DNA of 64,000 nucleotides from Thermoplasmatales archaeon (lineage in GTDB: Archaea; Thermoplasmatota; Thermoplasmata; Thermoplasmatales; Thermoplasmataceae), in assembly GCA_027310185.1 (NCBI GenBank), contig DAIDBH010000017.1, positions 160,996 through 224,995 of the forward strand, read 5' to 3'. Every line of letters begins with the position of its first letter. Position 1 is the first letter of the stretch. Below are positions 2,727-61,273 of this stretch, one piece after another. The notes under the pieces were generated by a model. The model was not told where the DNA came from. It ran no database searches and saw nothing but the letters and a program-made list of their open reading frames with translations. A program made the translations under genes and the position numbers.

Positions 2727-3398
2727 ATGAGTTATTATAAAAGACAAGTCACTGTCAGTACAGATTCAGAATTCAAAAGAAGATCTGGCGATATCATTGA
2801 TTTGGGAAATAAGCTGTATTCAAGAGGATTGCTTAATGCTACGAGCGGTAATATAAGCTCTGTTCTGAATGAAGATCCCCTCGAGCTTGCAATTACTGCA
2901 AGTGGAGTGGATAAGGGAAATATGAATGCTGAGGATATCATTATTATTGATTCAGATGGAACTGTTACCGAAGGAAATGGAAAACCTTCTGCTGAAACAT
3001 TGCTTCATCTTGCTGTAATAAAAAATAGTGAAGCCAAATCGGTGATACATACTCACTCAATATGGTCTACTGTCCTCTCAAGAATATATTTGCCTGAAGG
3101 CTTCCTAAGCCTTAAAGGATACGAAATGCTTAAGGCCCTCGACGGAAATAAGACGCATGAAACTAATGAAGTGATACCTGTGTTTGAAAATACACAGGAC
3201 ATGAAGGGGTTATCTGAAAGAGTTTCAAAATATCTTAAGGAACATCCAGAAACGCATGGTTTTGTACTTAGCGGCCATGGACTCTACACCTGGGGAAAGA
3301 GCCTCAAGGAAGCTAAGAGATCTGTTGAAGCACTTGAGTTTCTGCTTGAAGTTAAGGGCAGGGAGTTAAGCCTATCGGAAATAAAAATACAAGGGTGA
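2727..3398 (+). CDS. mtnB: Methylthioribulose-1-phosphate dehydratase
   Basis: ATSGNIS, ITASGVDKG, KPSAETLLH, HTHS and GHGLYTWG motifs of the class II aldolase/MtnB family; YEMLKAL typical of MtnB. Confidence 0.9.
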   Translation: MSYYKRQVTVSTDSEFKRRSGDIIDLGNKLYSRGLLNATSGNISSVLNEDPLELAITASGVDKGNMNAEDIIIIDSDGTVTEGNGKPSAETLLHLAVIKNSEAKSVIHTHSIWSTVLSRIYLPEGFLSLKGYEMLKALDGNKTHETNEVIPVFENTQDMKGLSERVSKYLKEHPETHGFVLSGHGLYTWGKSLKEAKRSVEALEFLLEVKGRELSLSEIKIQG

Positions 3399-3402
3399 GT
3401 AA

Positions 3403-3963
3403 ATGGTTTCATTGAAGATATTAGAAAAGCATCAAGAGATTAATGATCCGCTGAAAGTGTCAAAAATTCTCAATGGGTATGGGATAAAGTATGAAAAGTG
3501 GAATTCAGATAAACTCCAATCTGAAAATGCATCTCCCGAAAAGATACTTGATGTATATCATGAGGAAGTGGAGAAACTAAAAAAAGAAGGGGGTTATGTG
3601 ACTGCAGATGTTATTGATATAAACGATAGCACTCCTGGACTTAATGAGATGCTGGCTAAGTTCAACAAAGAACACTGGCACGATGAAGATGAGGTTAGGT
3701 ACACGATAAAGGGTCATGGGTTGTTTCATATTTATCCAGAAGAAGGAGTTACCTTATCAGTAGAGGTTGAAAAAGGAGACCTTCTGAGAGTACCAAGAGG
3801 GACAAAACACTGGTTTGATCTCTGTAAAGACAGAGAAATAAGAGCTATAAGACTGTTCCAGAACAAAAGTGGGTGGACCCCGTATTATACAAACAGTGGA
3901 AACGAAAAGAAATTCGTTCCACTGTGCTTTGGTCCTTCATTTATTCCCCTCAGGAAGGATTAG
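3403..3963 (+). CDS. mtnD: Acireductone dioxygenase
   Basis: Cupin metal ligands EHWHDEDEVRY and KHWFD; IRAIRLF...GWTPYY tail typical of ARD. Confidence 0.9.
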   Translation: MVSLKILEKHQEINDPLKVSKILNGYGIKYEKWNSDKLQSENASPEKILDVYHEEVEKLKKEGGYVTADVIDINDSTPGLNEMLAKFNKEHWHDEDEVRYTIKGHGLFHIYPEEGVTLSVEVEKGDLLRVPRGTKHWFDLCKDREIRAIRLFQNKSGWTPYYTNSGNEKKFVPLCFGPSFIPLRKD

Positions 3964-56921: not shown

Positions 56922-57497
56922 CTATTGACGATTAAACTTGAGATTATCTCTTATCGCATCAAGAACTTTCTTCGGCTCCGGCATTGAACCTTTCTTCTTT
57001 GTTCCATTGCTTGAAGTTATTTCCTCTTTGTCAGGTTCAACAATTACGTGCCCAATGCTCTTGAGTTTTTCAATATTGCCCTGCACGATCCTGTTGCCTC
57101 TCATCTTTTCATTCATGTTTGGAACGAAAATCATTGGCCTTTCATAGGCAATAAATGCTGTCGATAGAAGATCGTCACCTATCCCGCTAACTGCTTTTGC
57201 CATAGAGTTTGCACTCGCCGGTGCAACTATGAAGACATCAGCAATTTCTGTCAATTCAACGTGTGGTATCCTGATATTCCCCTCCTGATGGAACATGTCA
57301 GTGAATACGTGATTTTTAGTTTTTAATTCTACAGAATATGAAGATATGAATTTTTTTGACGCCTCTGTCATAATGGTCATAATCTGACAGTTCAGATTAC
57401 TCATCACATAGGTCATGTAATCAGAAATGTTCATGGAGCCAAGTGACCCTGTAATTCCCCACAATATGGTAACTTTCCTGTCCTCTTCTTTTGCCAT
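56922..57497 (-). CDS. HFCD-family flavoprotein, LanD (EpiD/MrsD)-like cysteine decarboxylase
   Basis: GITGSLGS, PHVE, APASANSMAK, PNMNEKM; the clamp segment EITSSNGTKK has no Cys; stand-alone 191 aa with no CoaB domain. Confidence 0.75.
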   Translation of the reverse strand: MAKEEDRKVTILWGITGSLGSMNISDYMTYVMSNLNCQIMTIMTEASKKFISSYSVELKTKNHVFTDMFHQEGNIRIPHVELTEIADVFIVAPASANSMAKAVSGIGDDLLSTAFIAYERPMIFVPNMNEKMRGNRIVQGNIEKLKSIGHVIVEPDKEEITSSNGTKKKGSMPEPKKVLDAIRDNLKFNRQ

Positions 57498-57537
57498 ATT
57501 TAAGTATTGTTAAGTGATATTAAACTTCTTTAATACT

Positions 57538-57831
57538 TTAGATAAAGATATAAGATAAAGCAGTTAATCCTGCCAAGGATACTATTGTCTTATTCACAGA
57601 AAAAATTAATGTTGCTGGTGTTTCTCCCATATGGGAAAAGAAACTACCATTTGTCTGTATTTTGAAATTTCTTGATATTTTTTCCGGGCTTTCTCCATTT
57701 TCTTCCACGAAAATTTTGAATGCTGGTACATCTAGACTTGACTCTTTTTTGTGAAATAGATATGGCATATTCTCACCCTTCCATATCCATGAAACGTTAA
57801 TTTTACTACATTCATATATTATATTTGTCAT
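57538..57831 (-). CDS. Small hypothetical ORF
   Basis: 97-codon AT-rich ORF on the same strand as, and just upstream of, the flavoprotein; coding status uncertain. Confidence 0.3.
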   Translation of the reverse strand: MTNIIYECSKINVSWIWKGENMPYLFHKKESSLDVPAFKIFVEENGESPEKISRNFKIQTNGSFFSHMGETPATLIFSVNKTIVSLAGLTALSYIFI

Positions 57832-57887
57832 GCTGTATACCTATTGATTAACTTAATTTACCACTTTCTTATTTCCATGGGAAAACA

Positions 57888-58412
57888 GTGCGGAAAAATA
57901 TAGTAAGAGTTGGTTTAATTCTAATTGTTCTCGGTATCATACTTGTGGTTGCTGGAATAGGTTTGACATCGGATTATCTCACTGTTAGCCATACATTTGT
58001 GAAGGATAAATATTATTATGCGTCACACGAGATTAATATTACAAGTGATGGACTGGTTGCTCTGGATGGCAATACAACATTCTATCTTGTTAATGCCAAC
58101 AATGTTTCACTTGTTAATCAGACAAATGTACAGGATTATTCAATAGCACCAACTGGACCCACTCATGATGGTTATGGAACAGAATTTCTTGTGGGTTCCG
58201 GTTCTTACTATTTGGTTTCATTCCTGGCACCCTCAACAGGACTGGTTTATTCCTATACAAGTCATTTCAGCACATTTACCGATCTCGGGATAATTCTTCT
58301 TATTGGCCTCTTCCTCATAGTTGTTTCAATTATCATGCTGGTTATTGGATTCTTACTCAAGGGGAAGAAGAAAGATACAGAGGAAGATTTTTTGAAAGAC
58401 GAAATACAGTAA
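57888..58412 (+). CDS. Membrane protein with N- and C-terminal TM anchors
   Basis: GTG start; two hydrophobic segments flanking an Asn/Thr/Tyr-rich loop; charged tail. Confidence 0.65.
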   Translation: MRKNIVRVGLILIVLGIILVVAGIGLTSDYLTVSHTFVKDKYYYASHEINITSDGLVALDGNTTFYLVNANNVSLVNQTNVQDYSIAPTGPTHDGYGTEFLVGSGSYYLVSFLAPSTGLVYSYTSHFSTFTDLGIILLIGLFLIVVSIIMLVIGFLLKGKKKDTEEDFLKDEIQ

Positions 58413-58426
58413 AATAGGTACAATTT

Positions 58427-59266
58427 ATGATTGAAATCAAAGACATAAGAAAGGTATACAAAGGTGGAAAAGTAGCTGTCGACGGAATTACCGAAACCAT
58501 GGACAAAAGAGTCACAACACTGATAGGTAGAAATGGTGCAGGAAAGACCACGCTGTTGAGAATGCTTTCAACACAGCTTTACCCTACCTCAGGGACTGCC
58601 CTAATCAATGGGCTTGATATTGTCAGTGATGCAATTAAAATTAGAAAAATAGTGGCAAGCATACCACAGGAGGCTTCTCCCCTGGGAATACTTTCACCAT
58701 ATGAACAGGTTAACATGTATCTACTGGGCAGAAAATTCAGTTTCCCTGATGCGAGGAAAGCTGCGAATGATGCCCTGGAGACAGTTGGACTCTGGGATGT
58801 TAGAAATAAGCCCTCTGATACGCTGAGCGGGGGGATGAAGAGGAAGATGTTCGTTGCACTTGCACTCGCATCAAATGCAGAACTTGTATTTTTGGATGAG
58901 CCAACAACAGGTCTTGACCCACTTTCCAGACTTGAGATATGGTCAGCCATTAAAAAACTGTCAGGCAATGTCCTGCTGACTACCCATTATATGGAAGAGG
59001 CAGAAAATCTGTCAGATGTTGTGTATCTTCAGGACAGTGGCCATATTATAGACAGGGGGACTGTAAAGAAACTGCTATCCAGGTTCTCGGGGAAGGTGAG
59101 GGTTGAATCTCAGACAGAACTTTCAGATTCATTCAAGGTAGGTGGGATTTACGTCAAATATGATGCAATTGAAAATTCTGAAACATACATACGGGAGGGC
59201 AAGACTGTGAAGAAAATCACTCTTGACGATCTGTTCATAATGAGGGGTGTTGATCTTGAATCTTAA
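58427..59266 (+). CDS. ABC-2/DrrA-type ATP-binding protein
   Basis: GRNGAGKTT, LSGGMKRK, FLDEPTTGLDP, TTHYMEEAE. Confidence 0.92.
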   Translation: MIEIKDIRKVYKGGKVAVDGITETMDKRVTTLIGRNGAGKTTLLRMLSTQLYPTSGTALINGLDIVSDAIKIRKIVASIPQEASPLGILSPYEQVNMYLLGRKFSFPDARKAANDALETVGLWDVRNKPSDTLSGGMKRKMFVALALASNAELVFLDEPTTGLDPLSRLEIWSAIKKLSGNVLLTTHYMEEAENLSDVVYLQDSGHIIDRGTVKKLLSRFSGKVRVESQTELSDSFKVGGIYVKYDAIENSETYIREGKTVKKITLDDLFIMRGVDLES

Positions 59267-60005
59267 ATTCATCTTTACCTTTGCATGGTATTATGGTGTA
59301 AAGGTAATTGTCAGGGGCCCATCCTATATCATAGCATCACTTGTAACACCACTTACGCTCCTGTTTGTTGTTTATGTACTTACTCAGGGTGCACTTGTGC
59401 AGTATGCAGTAGTCGGTGGAATGATAACGCTGATAGCATCCATAGGTCTTCAAAGTGCAGGAGATGCCACATTCATGAGACTTCAGCTGAGAATACAGGA
59501 AATGTATGTGGCCAGTGAGGTTACGCCAATAGATTATATGCTCAGTATGACCCTGAGTTTCCTGGCCTTCTCCATTCCTGGAATAATAGTTTACAGCTTC
59601 CTGGGCTCATATTATCATTTATACAACATTTTTACAGCACTTTACATGCTATTTCTTATCTTCATCCTTATTCTTTCTACATCTGCAATTTCCTTTATCA
59701 TATCAAGCCTGGTGAACCACGTCAGGAATATATGGGGAATCACTTCGATCCTTTCCATAGTAATGACTGTAATACCTCCTACATTCTATCCATACACGTA
59801 CCTTCTTGGGAAGTTCGGGCAGAACGGACTGATATATGCACTTTCACTATCACCCGCAACACCTGCAGCAGTATCTGCCCAGATATTCTTTGGCCTTGAA
59901 CCATGGAACTATTCTGAGTTCATAACAATGGTTGTAATCATGCTGGTTGAAACGGCTGTGTACTTTGCCATTGCAAAATATCTCACAAGATGGAGAGAGC
60001 ACTGA
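59247..60005 (+). CDS. ABC-2-type permease
   Basis: About six TM segments; overlaps the ATPase gene. Confidence 0.8.
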   Translation: MLILNLKFIFTFAWYYGVKVIVRGPSYIIASLVTPLTLLFVVYVLTQGALVQYAVVGGMITLIASIGLQSAGDATFMRLQLRIQEMYVASEVTPIDYMLSMTLSFLAFSIPGIIVYSFLGSYYHLYNIFTALYMLFLIFILILSTSAISFIISSLVNHVRNIWGITSILSIVMTVIPPTFYPYTYLLGKFGQNGLIYALSLSPATPAAVSAQIFFGLEPWNYSEFITMVVIMLVETAVYFAIAKYLTRWREH

Positions 60006-60123: not shown

Positions 60124-61273
60124 GAGGATTTCTAATAACCCTCGAAGAAACACCGTAACATTTATTCATGAAACACGCATGTTACAGCATGAGTGACCTG
60201 CTTGATCATGCGTTGAAGGAGAAATACAATTCAATGAAGATAAATGATCCATTAACATTCGTAAAGAATGCCATTGACTGGGATGCACTCACACCATTAT
60301 TGAGTGATCTGTACCACAATGATACAGATAATGGTGGAAGGCCAAACATACCTGTAAAGACCATGATCAAGGTACTGTTCCTGCAGAGCATGTTCAACAT
60401 GGTTGATGAACAGGCTGAAACACTTATAAAAGATAGAATTTCATTCATGAACTTTCTTGATTATCCTGATCAGTATCCAGATGCAAGAACCATATGGTTA
60501 TTCAGGGAAAGATTATCTAAGACCGGACGTGACAGGATCATATGGAATGAATTGCAGAGACAGCTTGAATCCAAGGGCATCAAAGTTAAGAAGGGATCTG
60601 CACAGGATGCAACATTCATCACATCTGATCCTGGACATGTGAAACATGAGGAAAAGAGATCAGAAGGAAAGACAAGAAGATCAAAAGATGGATCATTCAC
60701 TAAGAAAAATAACAAAACATTCTTCGGATACAAGGGTCATACAATTGTTGATGACAACATTCCTGTTCCAGTAATAAGATCCTATGCTGTATCAACAGCA
60801 AGGGATCATGACTCAACAATCGATCTTTCAAAAACAGGAATCACAGTGTACAGGGATAAGGGATATTTCGGGCATGATCCAAAGGGCATTGATGGTACCA
60901 TGGACAGATCAGTAAGGAATCACAAACTATCCATGGAATCCATACGAAGAAATCTGAGGATATCAAGGAAGAGATCACTTGTGGAATATCCATATGCGAT
61001 CATGAAGAGAATGTTTCATTTTTCACATGTCATGGTTACAACATTAAGAAGAGTGAGGGTGAAGTTCATGTTTGCATGTTTTGCTTACAATGTACATGCA
61101 TTGAAGATCGTCAACGGATAGCGTGAGCTATCAATTATTTAAGAAATTTCAGTGAAAGTAGAGGGAAAAAGAGCATAACACTGGAAGTAAAAGGTAGAAA
61201 TTGTCATATTTTCTAAGAAAATTATCAGGTTATGGTATTTCGATAGCAAATCAAGAGGAAATTAGAAAACCTC
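60124..61273 (+). mobile_element. Intact IS5-family insertion sequence
   Basis: IRs GAGGATTTCTAAT (60124-60136) and ATTAGAAAACCTC (61261-61273; one mismatch); 4-bp target duplication AAGT at 60120-60123 and 61274-61277. Confidence 0.9.
60168..61121 (+). CDS. IS5-family DDE transposase
   Basis: GGRPN..VKTMIKVLFLQ, PDARTIWLFRERL, QDATFI, FFGYKGH, YRDKGY, RSLVEYPY. Confidence 0.93.
   Translation: MKHACYSMSDLLDHALKEKYNSMKINDPLTFVKNAIDWDALTPLLSDLYHNDTDNGGRPNIPVKTMIKVLFLQSMFNMVDEQAETLIKDRISFMNFLDYPDQYPDARTIWLFRERLSKTGRDRIIWNELQRQLESKGIKVKKGSAQDATFITSDPGHVKHEEKRSEGKTRRSKDGSFTKKNNKTFFGYKGHTIVDDNIPVPVIRSYAVSTARDHDSTIDLSKTGITVYRDKGYFGHDPKGIDGTMDRSVRNHKLSMESIRRNLRISRKRSLVEYPYAIMKRMFHFSHVMVTTLRRVRVKFMFACFAYNVHALKIVNG

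What the first reader, a model, noticed from the sequence alone, without database searches (positions are those of the whole stretch)
56922..57497. Orphan LanD-type (EpiD/MrsD-like) peptidyl-cysteine decarboxylase in an archaeon: sign of an undescribed RiPP pathway
Seen: a stand-alone 191-aa HFCD flavoprotein with PASAN, PNMNEKM, the active-site His (PHVE) and clamp EEITSSNGTKKKGSMP. Its only Cys (C37) is far from the clamp. Known: CoA-pathway PPC decarboxylases (CoaC/Dfp) need a clamp Cys (ACG) to reduce the enethiol, while LanD enzymes lack it and leave the enethiol for AviCys ring formation. As I recall them, MrsD (GICGSISS...SYLLY; PNMNDLMW...NIEQLRKDGHIVIEP...FEIATGTRK) and EpiD (PASAN, PNMN, FEISSG) match this protein segment by segment. 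Inference: not CoaC, but a decarboxylase for a C-terminal-Cys peptide or another Cys-ended substrate. No Cys-terminated precursor or dehydratase was found in the window.
Basis: partly seen in the sequence, partly recalled or inferred. Interest (0 to 1): 0.78.

Follow-up and report, generated by a model that had tools for sequence, protein, structure and literature searches.

The report
Leftover peptide-cysteine decarboxylase of a decayed cassette
This archaeal gene encodes a flavin enzyme of the type that removes the carboxyl group from a peptide's last cysteine; it is the still-expressed survivor of a small peptide-modification gene cassette (precursor peptide, radical SAM enzyme, exporter, decarboxylase) that is intact in related acid-loving archaea and appears not to have been described.

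Summary

It is LanD-type rather than CoaC-type:
- The best solved-structure hits by sequence and by fold are MrsD and SpaF.
- It scores below both CoaBC/CoaC NCBIfam cut-offs.
- In a bootstrapped tree it groups with MrsD, apart from all 72 CoaBC-length proteins (92 %).

The strongest evidence is genomic context. Its Ferroplasma orthologs (57 % identical) end a four-gene cassette: a 34-aa precursor ending ...N-x-x-Cys, an NxxcB-like radical SAM maturase, an MFS exporter, then the HFCD. Across 12 archaeal cassette types, 6 of 6 with an intact HFCD have a Cys-terminal precursor and 0 of 6 without do.

In the window the cassette has decayed. The "97-aa ORF" upstream is an untranscribed remnant of the MFS gene, and the rSAM and precursor genes are gone. 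The HFCD is still under purifying selection (dN/dS 0.11-0.17) and is transcribed. It carries an Arg found only in the orphans at a conserved aromatic motif position. Its present substrate is unknown.

Two caveats: absence of the clamp Cys is not diagnostic, because true CoaBCs without it exist; and I could not verify a separate coaBC in this genome.

The parts
56922..57497 (-). HFCD flavoprotein gene, 191 aa, LanD-type (peptidyl-cysteine decarboxylase-like). It has His79, PASAN, PNMNEKMR and a clamp without Cys. It is the intact, expressed survivor of the cassette.
   Evidence: ORF and motifs. PDB sequence hits MrsD 2.7e-25 and SpaF (7cfu) 7e-23, against human PPCDC 9e-17. Tree and bootstrap. 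Foldseek. dN/dS 0.11-0.17. RNA contig covers the gene.
57517..57524 (-). TATA-like box (TTTAATAT, preceded by AAAGAAG), about 23 nt upstream of the ATG. Probable promoter of a leaderless HFCD mRNA, embedded in the last codons of the dead MFS gene.
   Evidence: The block AAAGAAGTTTAATATCAC is conserved in window, L002 and L009 while the flanks diverge. The RNA contig stops at 57483 and there is no RNA upstream. The promoter role is inferred from the usual archaeal TATA-to-start spacing (my own knowledge).
57510..57579 (-). Remnant of the 3' end of the cassette's MFS exporter gene (codons about 383-404 plus the stop), with a frameshift.
   Evidence: LSKVLKKFNIT* against Ferroplasma LSKELKKFNTT*, and SLAGLTALSYIFI against AFAFITAVSYILS. 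The same tail survives in C. divulgatum L002 and in L009. Coordinates.
57601..57705 (-). Remnant of the 5' end of the MFS exporter gene (codons about 3-37). About 345 codons between the two remnants are deleted.
   Evidence: tblastn: 47 % identity, E 4e-6 against window plus two loci; 51 % identity, E 2e-10 with the second Ferroplasma MFS.
57538..57831 (-). 97-aa 'ORF' that is not a gene. It is the fused, frameshifted MFS remnants read through.
   Evidence: ORF. No family hit. Zero RNA depth over 57484-57919 in two metatranscriptomes, with full DNA coverage.

Best explanation
The gene encodes an FMN-dependent, LanD-type peptidyl-cysteine oxidative decarboxylase. The window is a Cuniculiplasma-like (Thermoplasmatales) genome.

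The enzyme family serves a compact RiPP-like cassette found in acidophilic Thermoplasmatota. The cassette has four genes. The first is a 34-36-aa precursor with a conserved acidic leader (D-[DE]-[YFH]-G-R-[IT]-[FY]) and a core ending in Asn-x-x-Cys-COOH, or close variants. The second is an NxxcB-like radical SAM/SPASM maturase, a family whose streptococcal member makes an Asn-C-beta to Cys-S thioether. The third is an MFS exporter. The fourth is the HFCD.

Inferred mechanism in intact cassettes: the HFCD oxidises the free C-terminal Cys thiol to a thioaldehyde, and loss of CO2 gives an aminoenethiol(ate), as in EpiD and MrsD. The radical SAM enzyme supplies the thioether link, possibly joining that enethiol sulfur to Asn C-beta. 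That would give an aminovinyl-thioether ring with the i, i+3 spacing of classical AviCys rings, made without a dehydroalanine. The MFS protein exports the product.

In the window lineage the cassette decayed. The precursor and rSAM genes are gone and the MFS gene is reduced to two untranscribed fragments. Its last codons survive because they carry the HFCD promoter. The HFCD itself is kept under purifying selection and is transcribed, so it still does something. Most likely it acts on a Cys-terminal substrate encoded elsewhere in the genome, or on a new substrate. The orphan-specific Trp-to-Arg change in PxMNxxM[W/Y/F] may reflect that shift.

Shown: gene, motifs, grouping with LanDs, cassette context of orthologs, HFCD versus C-terminal Cys association, MFS remnants, selection, transcription. 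Inferred: enzyme activity, order of steps, ring structure, present substrate.
For: - HFCD fold and motifs.
- Closest solved relatives are peptidyl-Cys decarboxylases, by sequence and by fold.
- The protein is below both the CoaBC and CoaC equivalog cut-offs, and a protein named mersacidin decarboxylase scores the same way.
- NJ tree: the family lies in a clade of short, clamp-Cys-less HFCDs with EpiD, MrsD and SpaF. Bootstrap support is 92 % with MrsD and 80 % with all three, excluding all 72 CoaBC-length proteins and human PPCDC.
- Orthologs P0004 and P0005 (57 % identical) follow the peptide, rSAM and MFS genes, with a 9-bp gap between MFS and HFCD.
- The rSAM is nearest to RiPP maturase families: Clo7bot 144 bits, TIGR04463 134, PapB 116. 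Its homologs include S. mitis loci whose peptide ends ...NNLVCGAGC. NxxcB chemistry is described in PMC9389541.
- Second-type HFCDs occupy the same cassette position in a Cuniculiplasma sp. MAG and other Thermoplasmatota.
- Cys-terminal precursor in 6/6 cassette types with an intact HFCD, against 0/6 without. This includes a sister pair...NFLC* with HFCD and ...NFLCH* where the HFCD is a 75-aa stub.
- Two of three bacterial rSAM+HFCD loci have small ORFs ending ...NYGC* and ...NCVC*.
- MFS remnants lie directly upstream in the window.
- dN/dS is 0.11-0.17 among the three orphan lineages at dS 0.8-1.1.
- Transcription.
Against: - No activity was measured for any member.
- The window has no substrate gene, so the present role of this copy is open.
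- A separate coaBC in this genome was not demonstrated.
- IMG names the C. divulgatum ortholog as PPC decarboxylase/synthetase.
- Long retention and apparently good expression of an orphan would also fit a housekeeping role.
- The tree is distance-based, built on about 190 columns of 25-40 % identical sequences.
- Foldseek scores of PPC decarboxylases are only slightly worse than those of the LanDs.
- The precursor ORFs are predictions.
- The 12 cassette types are not phylogenetically independent. Collapsed to 4 lineages against 6, my own hypergeometric arithmetic gives about 0.005.
- In bacteria, Cys-terminal NxxC-type peptides also occur without an HFCD.
Confidence: 0.72

Rival explanations
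1. It is the organism's housekeeping phosphopantothenoylcysteine decarboxylase (a stand-alone CoaC) of CoA biosynthesis. Its adjacency to a RiPP-like cassette in Ferroplasma is then either coincidental or reflects dual use.
For: The best NCBIfam matches are CoaBC (130.7 bits) and CoaC (108.2 bits). IMG names the C. divulgatum ortholog that way. The gene is kept under purifying selection and transcribed long after the cassette was lost. Clamp-Cys-less proteins that pass the CoaBC model exist, so lack of the Cys does not exclude PPC decarboxylation. I could not show another HFCD gene in the genome.
Against: Both NCBIfam scores are far below the equivalog cut-offs of 219.7 and 261.4, and are the same as for a named mersacidin decarboxylase. 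The family groups with LanDs and away from every CoaBC-length protein. It has the LanD-like PNMN rather than P[AS]MN. The family is tiny and patchy: five clusters in 5.8 billion proteins, nothing above 41 % identity among 1.84 billion representatives, and one contig in the JGI metagenomes. That does not fit an essential enzyme of an order whose other members must also make CoA. The 9-bp spacing after the MFS gene and the co-variation with the precursor C-terminus argue against chance adjacency.
Confidence: 0.1
2. The orphan has been neofunctionalised. After the cassette was lost it was kept for a different substrate or role, for example another thiol-carboxylate metabolite, a Cys-terminal protein, or a non-catalytic Hal3-like regulatory role, rather than for an NxxC peptide.
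For: All four orphan sequences, and no other among 167 aligned HFCDs, carry Arg at the aromatic position of PxMNxxM[W/Y/F]. The in-cassette Ferroplasma orthologs keep Trp. The gene appears co-transcribed with unrelated downstream genes, an MBL-fold hydrolase and a beta-hydroxyacid dehydrogenase. No precursor is found in the 64 kb.
Against: His79, Asn129, PASAN and the FMN-binding N-terminus are all intact. dN/dS is no lower or higher than between the in-cassette copies, 0.18. A substrate peptide elsewhere in the genome cannot be excluded. Another Cuniculiplasma sp. carries a complete second-type cassette.
Confidence: 0.13
3. The gene is a functionless leftover that has simply not yet accumulated disabling mutations.
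For: Its cassette partners are deleted. It evolves about six times faster at non-synonymous sites than the neighbouring MBL gene, dN 0.134 against 0.020. A conserved motif residue is changed.
Against: It has an intact reading frame in three lineages separated by dS 0.8-1.1, with dN/dS 0.11-0.17. Over the same time the adjacent MFS remnant has become almost unrecognisable. The catalytic residues are kept. The gene is transcribed while the remnant is silent.
Confidence: 0.05

Closest known systems
MrsD (mersacidin decarboxylase, PDB 1p3y) and EpiD (epidermin, 1g63): LanD peptidyl-cysteine decarboxylases of lanthipeptide pathways
   Same: Same HFCD fold. Active-site His, PASAN and PNMN motifs. 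A substrate clamp without the reducing Cys. About 190 aa and stand-alone. MrsD is the best hit by sequence and by structure. Same clade in the tree. Orthologs act next to a Cys-terminal precursor. The N-x-x-C* spacing equals, as I recall, the S-x-x-C* spacing of the epidermin AviCys ring.
   Different: Only about 30-32 % identical. The host is archaeal. The partner enzyme in relatives is a radical SAM maturase, not LanB/C/M. The cores of the three Ferroplasma (window-type) precursors have no Ser or Thr, so a dehydroalanine acceptor is not available there. In the window there is no partner at all. Arg replaces the motif's aromatic residue.
SpaF (PDB 7cfu), TvaF (6jls) and CypD (6jdd): cysteine decarboxylases of thioamitide and linaridin pathways
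   Same: LanD-like HFCDs recruited to non-lanthipeptide RiPP classes. SpaF is the second-best hit by sequence and fold.
   Different: Those pathways, as I recall, make the AviCys acceptor by phosphorylation-elimination or from Cys. No radical SAM thioether synthase is involved. CypD is very distant (15.5 bits).
NxxC RaS-RiPP system of streptococci (NxxcA precursor, NxxcB radical SAM; PMC9389541)
   Same: The cassette rSAM retrieves S. mitis loci whose peptide carries D-Y-G-I...N-L-V-C. Archaeal precursors share the D-x-[YF]-G leader element and an N-x-x-C core.
   Different: About 33 % identity to the archaeal rSAM. None of the papers I read on this system mentions a decarboxylase. The archaeal cassettes add an MFS exporter and, in half of the types, an HFCD with a Cys-terminal core. 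Whether the archaeal enzyme makes the same Asn-C-beta thioether is untested.
CoaC / CoaBC (Dfp) phosphopantothenoylcysteine decarboxylase
   Same: Same superfamily, same FMN chemistry up to the enethiol. The highest-scoring NCBIfam models.
   Different: Below the equivalog cut-offs. No CoaB domain fused, and none anywhere in the window. No ACG-type clamp. PNMN instead of P[AS]MN. Separated in the tree. Patchy distribution.

Membership tests
HFCD flavoprotein superfamily (Pfam PF02441) | Match to the family model above the gathering score; Rossmann-like flavodoxin fold | tested here: met
   92.1 bits against a cut-off of 22.7, residues 10-185. AF2 model pLDDT 86.5, and all top Foldseek hits are HFCD proteins.
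LanD-type peptidyl-cysteine decarboxylase | Active-site His (EpiD His67) and the Asn of PxMNxxMW that holds the Cys carboxylate | tested here: met
   His79 and Asn129 are invariant in the family alignment and align with MrsD and EpiD. The final aromatic residue of the motif is Arg in the window protein.
LanD-type peptidyl-cysteine decarboxylase | No reducing Cys in the substrate clamp, so the enethiol is released | tested here: met
   No Cys within 3 columns of the human PPCDC clamp Cys; the only Cys is C37. Not diagnostic on its own: 13 of 72 CoaBC-length proteins also lack it.
LanD-type peptidyl-cysteine decarboxylase | Groups phylogenetically with characterised LanDs rather than with CoaC | tested here: met
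   NJ tree, with bootstrap 92 % (with MrsD) and 80 % (with MrsD, EpiD and SpaF), excluding all CoaBC-length proteins and human PPCDC.
LanD-type peptidyl-cysteine decarboxylase | Encoded in a RiPP gene cluster with a precursor peptide ending in Cys | tested here: not met
   Not met in the window: no precursor and no maturase. Met for the orthologs in Ferroplasma. The window keeps remnants of that cluster's MFS gene.
LanD-type peptidyl-cysteine decarboxylase | Removes CO2 and 2 H (46 Da) from a C-terminal Cys of a peptide | not testable with these tools
   Needs an enzyme assay.
CoaC / CoaBC phosphopantothenoylcysteine decarboxylase | Scores above the curated equivalog cut-off (TIGR00521 or TIGR02113) | tested here: not met
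   130.7 against 219.7, and 108.2 against 261.4. True CoaBCs score 363-439.
CoaC / CoaBC phosphopantothenoylcysteine decarboxylase | Fused to, or accompanied by, the CoaB (PF04127) ligase domain | tested here: not met
   The protein is 191 aa with a single domain. No CoaB-domain hit in the six-frame translation of the window or of the held Thermoplasmatales loci.
CoaC / CoaBC phosphopantothenoylcysteine decarboxylase | Is the only HFCD decarboxylase of the genome, and so essential | not testable with these tools
   Whole genomes could not be fetched. The literature and homolog searches gave no answer.
NxxC-type radical SAM RiPP cassette (precursor, NxxcB-like rSAM, exporter) | Adjacent NxxcB-like radical SAM/SPASM maturase and a leader-bearing N-x-x-C precursor | tested here: not met
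   Absent from the window. Only MFS fragments remain. Present next to the orthologs.

The most novel reading that the evidence does not exclude
Thermoplasmatota, and a few bacteria (Catenulispora, a Bacillota MAG), make a RiPP class in which an NxxcB-like radical SAM enzyme and a LanD-like decarboxylase cooperate on a core ending Asn-x-x-Cys-COOH. Together they would build an S-aminovinyl thioether ring on Asn C-beta: an AviCys analogue made by radical chemistry instead of Michael addition to dehydroalanine. It would, as far as I know, be the first AviCys-type chemistry in archaea. The window's copy would be a survivor of that system, kept and retuned (Trp to Arg) for a new substrate.
Probability: 0.3. 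Interest if true: 0.85.

Novelty: new variant of a known kind. Interest (0 to 1): 0.62.

Why it matters
LanD-type decarboxylases are known from lanthipeptide, linaridin, thioamitide and related bacterial pathways. In all of those, as I recall, the enethiol they make adds to a dehydro-amino acid.

Here the same enzyme type is repeatedly coupled, in archaea and in a few bacteria, to a radical SAM thioether synthase and to precursors whose last four residues are N-x-x-C. That predicts a new way to build an aminovinyl-thioether ring. It also gives a directly testable three-gene system of about 2.6 kb (precursor, rSAM, HFCD).

The finding gives a practical rule for genome mining: an HFCD next to an NxxcB-like rSAM predicts a Cys-terminal core.

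It also corrects a common shortcut, that absence of the clamp Cys means LanD. And it is a clean example of a tailoring enzyme outliving its gene cluster, which matters for how 'orphan' biosynthetic genes are read in genome scans.

For the window itself the message is more modest. There is no active RiPP cluster here, only its expressed last gene.

Tried and rejected
- Separate coaBC: three literature searches and one paper's supplements gave nothing on Thermoplasmatales CoaBC. Kupke & Schwarz 2006 is not held. The last homolog search, with the best CoaBC-length hit P0010, returned only an unnamed or bacterial lineage. Cluster look-ups of clamp-Cys-less CoaBCs gave bacteria and plants, no Thermoplasmatales. 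An HMM for the CoaB domain found nothing in the window or in the held Thermoplasmatales loci.
- rSAM remnant: none is detectable upstream of the MFS fragment.
- Precursor in the window: tblastn, the leader regex and N..C* frames gave only chance-looking hits. The three ORFs of 60 aa or more that end in Cys look unrelated.
- The family in JGI metagenomes: one contig only, identical in arrangement to C. divulgatum.
- Fold comparison does not separate LanD from CoaC sharply, so I give it little weight.
- I considered that the ABC transporter divergent from the gene (57888-60005) belongs to the system. I rejected this because it is absent from all intact cassettes, which use an MFS exporter instead.
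- Published rSAM+LanD combinations: none found. This is absence in the held library only.
Full report
**1. The observation**

The ORF listing and the raw sequence show an ATG-to-stop ORF of 191 aa at 56922-57497 on the minus strand. It matches Pfam PF02441 (Flavoprotein, HFCD superfamily) at 92.1 bits over residues 10-185. All quoted motifs are there: PHVE with His79, PASAN, PNMNEKM and the stretch EEITSSNGTKKKGSMP. Cys37 is the only cysteine.

**2. The organism**

The closest homologs are 98, 79 and 76 % identical. The 76 % one is named 'flavoprotein [Cuniculiplasma divulgatum]', and a 57-58 % one is from Ferroplasma sp. Type II. The C. divulgatum locus is syntenic with the window over at least 20 kb. 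The neighbouring MBL-fold gene is 95 % identical at the protein level. The exact sequence is held by a 'microbial fuel cell metagenome' sample, and near-identical sequence by many mine-drainage and tailings metagenomes. The window is therefore from a Cuniculiplasma-like acidophilic archaeon (Thermoplasmatales).

**3. LanD-type or CoaC-type?**

- By sequence, the best solved relatives are MrsD (E 2.7e-25) and SpaF (7cfu, 7e-23). They are ahead of human PPCDC (9e-17), EpiD (1e-15), M. smegmatis CoaBC (2e-15) and AtHAL3a (5e-14).
- The best NCBIfam models are CoaBC (130.7 bits) and CoaC (108.2 bits), but the cut-offs are 219.7 and 261.4. A protein that sources name mersacidin decarboxylase scores 141.7 and 100.0 on the same models, while real CoaBCs score 363-439. 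That hit therefore says only 'HFCD decarboxylase'.
- An exhaustive HMMER search of 1.84 billion representatives found nothing above 41 % identity.
- I aligned the 150 best representatives, the family, and reference segments of MrsD, SpaF, EpiD and human PPCDC taken. In the NJ tree, the family sits in a 43-leaf clade made only of short proteins with no clamp Cys, and that clade contains all three LanD references.
- With five more cassette HFCDs added and 200 bootstrap replicates, a clade of the family plus MrsD that excludes all 72 CoaBC-length proteins and human PPCDC appears in 92 % of replicates. With all three LanDs it appears in 80 %.
- The x in PxMN is Asn in all 22 sequences of the LanD-like kind, and Ala or Ser in nearly all CoaBC-length proteins.
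- An AlphaFold model (pLDDT 86.5) is closest to MrsD and SpaF, but PPC decarboxylases follow closely.

Of the 72 CoaBC-length proteins, 13 lack a Cys at the clamp. Two of them, P0019 and P0020, pass the CoaBC equivalog model. Others are the CoaBC of cultured Coprothermobacter proteolyticus and Trichococcus species. Absence of the Cys does not by itself make a LanD.

**4. Context in relatives is the decisive evidence**

In Ferroplasma Type II and a second Ferroplasma lineage, the ortholog is the last gene of a tight four-gene unit:
- a 34-aa ORF,
- a 314-aa radical SAM protein,
- a 404-aa MFS transporter,
- then the HFCD, 9 bp after the MFS stop.

The small ORFs read as follows:
- MELDEYGRTFGVDEEIGEFFDDVNAHCPVVNFVC
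- MEIDEYGRTFGVDEEIGEFFDDVNGNCPVVNFIC
- MELDEHGRIFGVDEEIGEMLAGDNEKCTIRNYAC

Each has an acidic leader-like half and a core that ends in Cys.

The radical SAM protein is nearest to RiPP maturase families: Clo7bot 144 bits, TIGR04463 134, PapB ranthipeptide 116, CefB 112. All are below their cut-offs. It belongs to a large family of 1432 hits. A genome scan with it retrieved, among others, Streptococcus mitis loci whose upstream peptide is ...EQDYGIEFNNLVCGAGC. That is the NxxC type. The streptococcal NxxcB enzyme makes an Asn-C-beta to Cys-S thioether (PMC9389541). The archaeal peptides share the D-x-[YF]-G leader element and an N-x-x-C core.

**5. HFCD presence tracks a Cys C-terminus**

I collected every distinct archaeal cassette type that the look-ups allowed.

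With an intact HFCD:

| Source | Loci | Precursor end |
|---|---|---|
| Ferroplasma II | L005/6/8 | ...NFVC* |
| Ferroplasma | L007 | ...NFIC* |
| Ferroplasma | L010/11 | ...NYAC* |
| Cuniculiplasma sp. MAG | L013/14 | ...NFKVFC* |
| Thermoplasmatota | L099/100 | ...NFLC* |
| MAG/metagenome contig, taxonomy not shown | L107/108 | ...GNMC* |

Without an HFCD:

| Source | Loci | Precursor end |
|---|---|---|
| Ferroplasma sp. | L015/16 | ...NFICKIYK* |
| Thermoplasmata | L019 | ...NISCM* |
| Pyrobaculum | L026 | ...NIFCKIT* |
| MAG/metagenome contig, taxonomy not shown | L103-105 | ...LVPCM* |
| MAG/metagenome contig, taxonomy not shown | L109/110 | ...NIECRIKPPKSKTKD* |
| MAG/metagenome contig, taxonomy not shown | L101/102 | ...NFLCH* |

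The last case is a natural experiment. Its precursor is otherwise like the ...NFLC* one, but its HFCD is reduced to a 75-aa stub. Only the first 40 or so residues of that stub are homologous to an HFCD.

The tally is 6/6 against 0/6. Fisher's exact test on the first ten gave p = 0.008. For twelve, my own arithmetic gives 2/924 = 0.002. Collapsing the three Ferroplasma types to one lineage gives 1/210 = 0.005.

Two different HFCD subfamilies fill this position: the window/Ferroplasma type, and a PSMN type that is 34-36 % identical to it. The association is therefore functional and not merely inherited.

Three bacterial loci also pair a related rSAM with an HFCD. Two of them have small ORFs ending ...LDNYGC* and ...GDDNCVC*. 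The converse does not hold in bacteria: Cys-terminal peptides also occur without an HFCD.

**6. What is in the window**

tblastn with the Ferroplasma cassette proteins finds no precursor and no rSAM. The MFS protein, however, hits the window directly upstream of the HFCD, on the same strand:
- Codons 3-37 lie at 57705-57601 (47-51 % identity, E 4e-6 and 2e-10).
- Codons about 383-404 plus the stop lie at 57579-57510 (LSKVLKKFNIT* against LSKELKKFNTT*), with a frameshift.
- About 345 codons are missing between the two fragments.

The '97-aa ORF' 57538-57831 is this wreck read through. The last dozen MFS codons also survive in C. divulgatum and in a third Cuniculiplasma-like contig, although the rest of the spacer has diverged beyond recognition. 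That conserved block, AAAGAAGTTTAATATCAC, holds a TATA-like box at 57517-57524, about 23 nt before the ATG.

Two metatranscriptomes from the very sample that holds the window show the following:
- An RNA contig covers the HFCD gene and the genes downstream of it, and stops at 57483.
- There is no RNA at all over 57484-57919.
- The DNA run covers everything.

So the HFCD is transcribed, probably as a leaderless mRNA from a promoter buried in the dead gene's tail, and the MFS remnant is silent. Two caveats apply: contigs carry no strand, and depth is a poor measure of expression.

**7. Is the orphan still functional?**

Among the three orphan lineages, dN/dS is 0.11-0.17 at dS 0.8-1.1. That is the same range as between the two in-cassette Ferroplasma copies (0.18). 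The gene does evolve faster than its MBL neighbour (0.03). The catalytic residues are intact.

One change stands out. At the aromatic position of PxMNxxM[W/Y/F], the counts among 167 sequences are W 74, Y 68, L 9, F 8. The four orphan sequences, and only they, have Arg. This may mark a change of substrate after orphaning, or it may be neutral.

**8. Mechanism**

The following is inferred from the established EpiD/MrsD chemistry and from NxxcB (PMC9389541).

In intact cassettes the HFCD oxidatively decarboxylates the free C-terminal Cys to an aminoenethiol. The rSAM makes a thioether to Asn C-beta. The MFS protein exports the product. If the enethiol sulfur is the one that the rSAM couples, the product carries an aminovinyl-thioether ring with the i, i+3 spacing of classical AviCys, built without dehydroalanine. 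The three Ferroplasma cores contain no Ser or Thr.

For the window copy, the substrate is unknown. Either a Cys-terminal peptide is encoded elsewhere in the genome (another Cuniculiplasma sp. does carry a complete second-type cassette), or the substrate is new.

**9. What remains open**

- Whether the genome has a separate coaBC. None of my routes reached a Thermoplasmatales CoaBC.
- An indirect argument against a housekeeping role is the tiny, patchy distribution of the family.
- I found no paper describing an rSAM plus LanD-type combination, or AviCys-type chemistry in archaea, in the held library. This is absence of evidence only.

**10. Verdict**

This is a real, expressed LanD-type decarboxylase gene. 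It is the relic of a precursor-rSAM-MFS-HFCD cassette that is intact in relatives and appears undescribed. It is wrong in one premise (the clamp Cys), and in expecting the pathway to be present in this genome region and to be lanthipeptide-like.

Noticed in passing
window 57102-57104 (codon for Arg133 of the HFCD protein); compared with P0001-P0005: All four orphan (Cuniculiplasma-type) HFCDs have Arg at the aromatic position of PxMNxxM[W/Y/F]. None of the other 163 aligned HFCDs does, and the in-cassette Ferroplasma orthologs keep Trp.
   Followed up: partly
window 60168-61121 (+): A DUF772/DDE_Tnp_1 (IS5-like) transposase sits between the ABC-2 permease and the M1 aminopeptidase. In C. divulgatum those two genes are adjacent, so this looks like a lineage-specific IS insertion. 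Intact cassettes in relatives are also flanked by transposases, an integrase or a group II intron RT.
   Followed up: partly
window 57888-58412 (+): The RNA contig of the divergent 174-aa membrane-protein gene begins at 57920, with adaptor sequence before it. That is 32 nt inside the ORF's GTG start at 57888, so the real start codon may lie further downstream.
   Followed up: no
L101 5339-5566 and L102 about 3100-3740: A 75-aa stub of an HFCD gene lies after the MFS gene. Its first 40 or so residues are homologous to the L099 HFCD. It is paired with a precursor whose Cys is followed by one extra His (...NFLCH*). This is a second, independent case of cassette decay.
   Followed up: yes
P0019, P0020, P0045 (Coprothermobacter proteolyticus cluster), P0105 (Trichococcus cluster): Full-length CoaBC proteins that lack the clamp Cys (for example GHLADGE, GKLATGK). 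P0019 and P0020 score above the equivalog cut-off. How these enzymes reduce the enethiol intermediate is unclear.
   Followed up: partly
L017 4550-5518 and L018 4505-5473 (Bacillus spizizenii): A 42 %-identical homolog of the cassette rSAM lies inside a prophage-like region (replication, integrase and terminase genes), with only tiny unannotated ORFs beside it.
   Followed up: no
L034 4722-7042 (Catenulispora pinistramenti), L042 1808-3811 (Bacillota MAG), L037 4641-8396 (Bryobacterales MAG): Bacterial loci pairing a longer (447-477 aa) relative of the rSAM with an adjacent HFCD. Two have small ORFs ending ...LDNYGC* and ...GDDNCVC*. No precursor was found in L037.
   Followed up: partly
L005/L006 10767-12593 (-): The gene convergent on the Ferroplasma cassette is a tetraether lipid synthase Tes (678 bits). 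It is unrelated to the cassette but easily mistaken for a second RiPP rSAM.
   Followed up: yes
L109/L110 3683-7178: Here the rSAM homolog has a 101-aa leader-bearing ORF upstream (DDLGRI...NIEC...). It is followed by two polyprenyl synthetase genes instead of an MFS exporter, a different cassette architecture.
   Followed up: no
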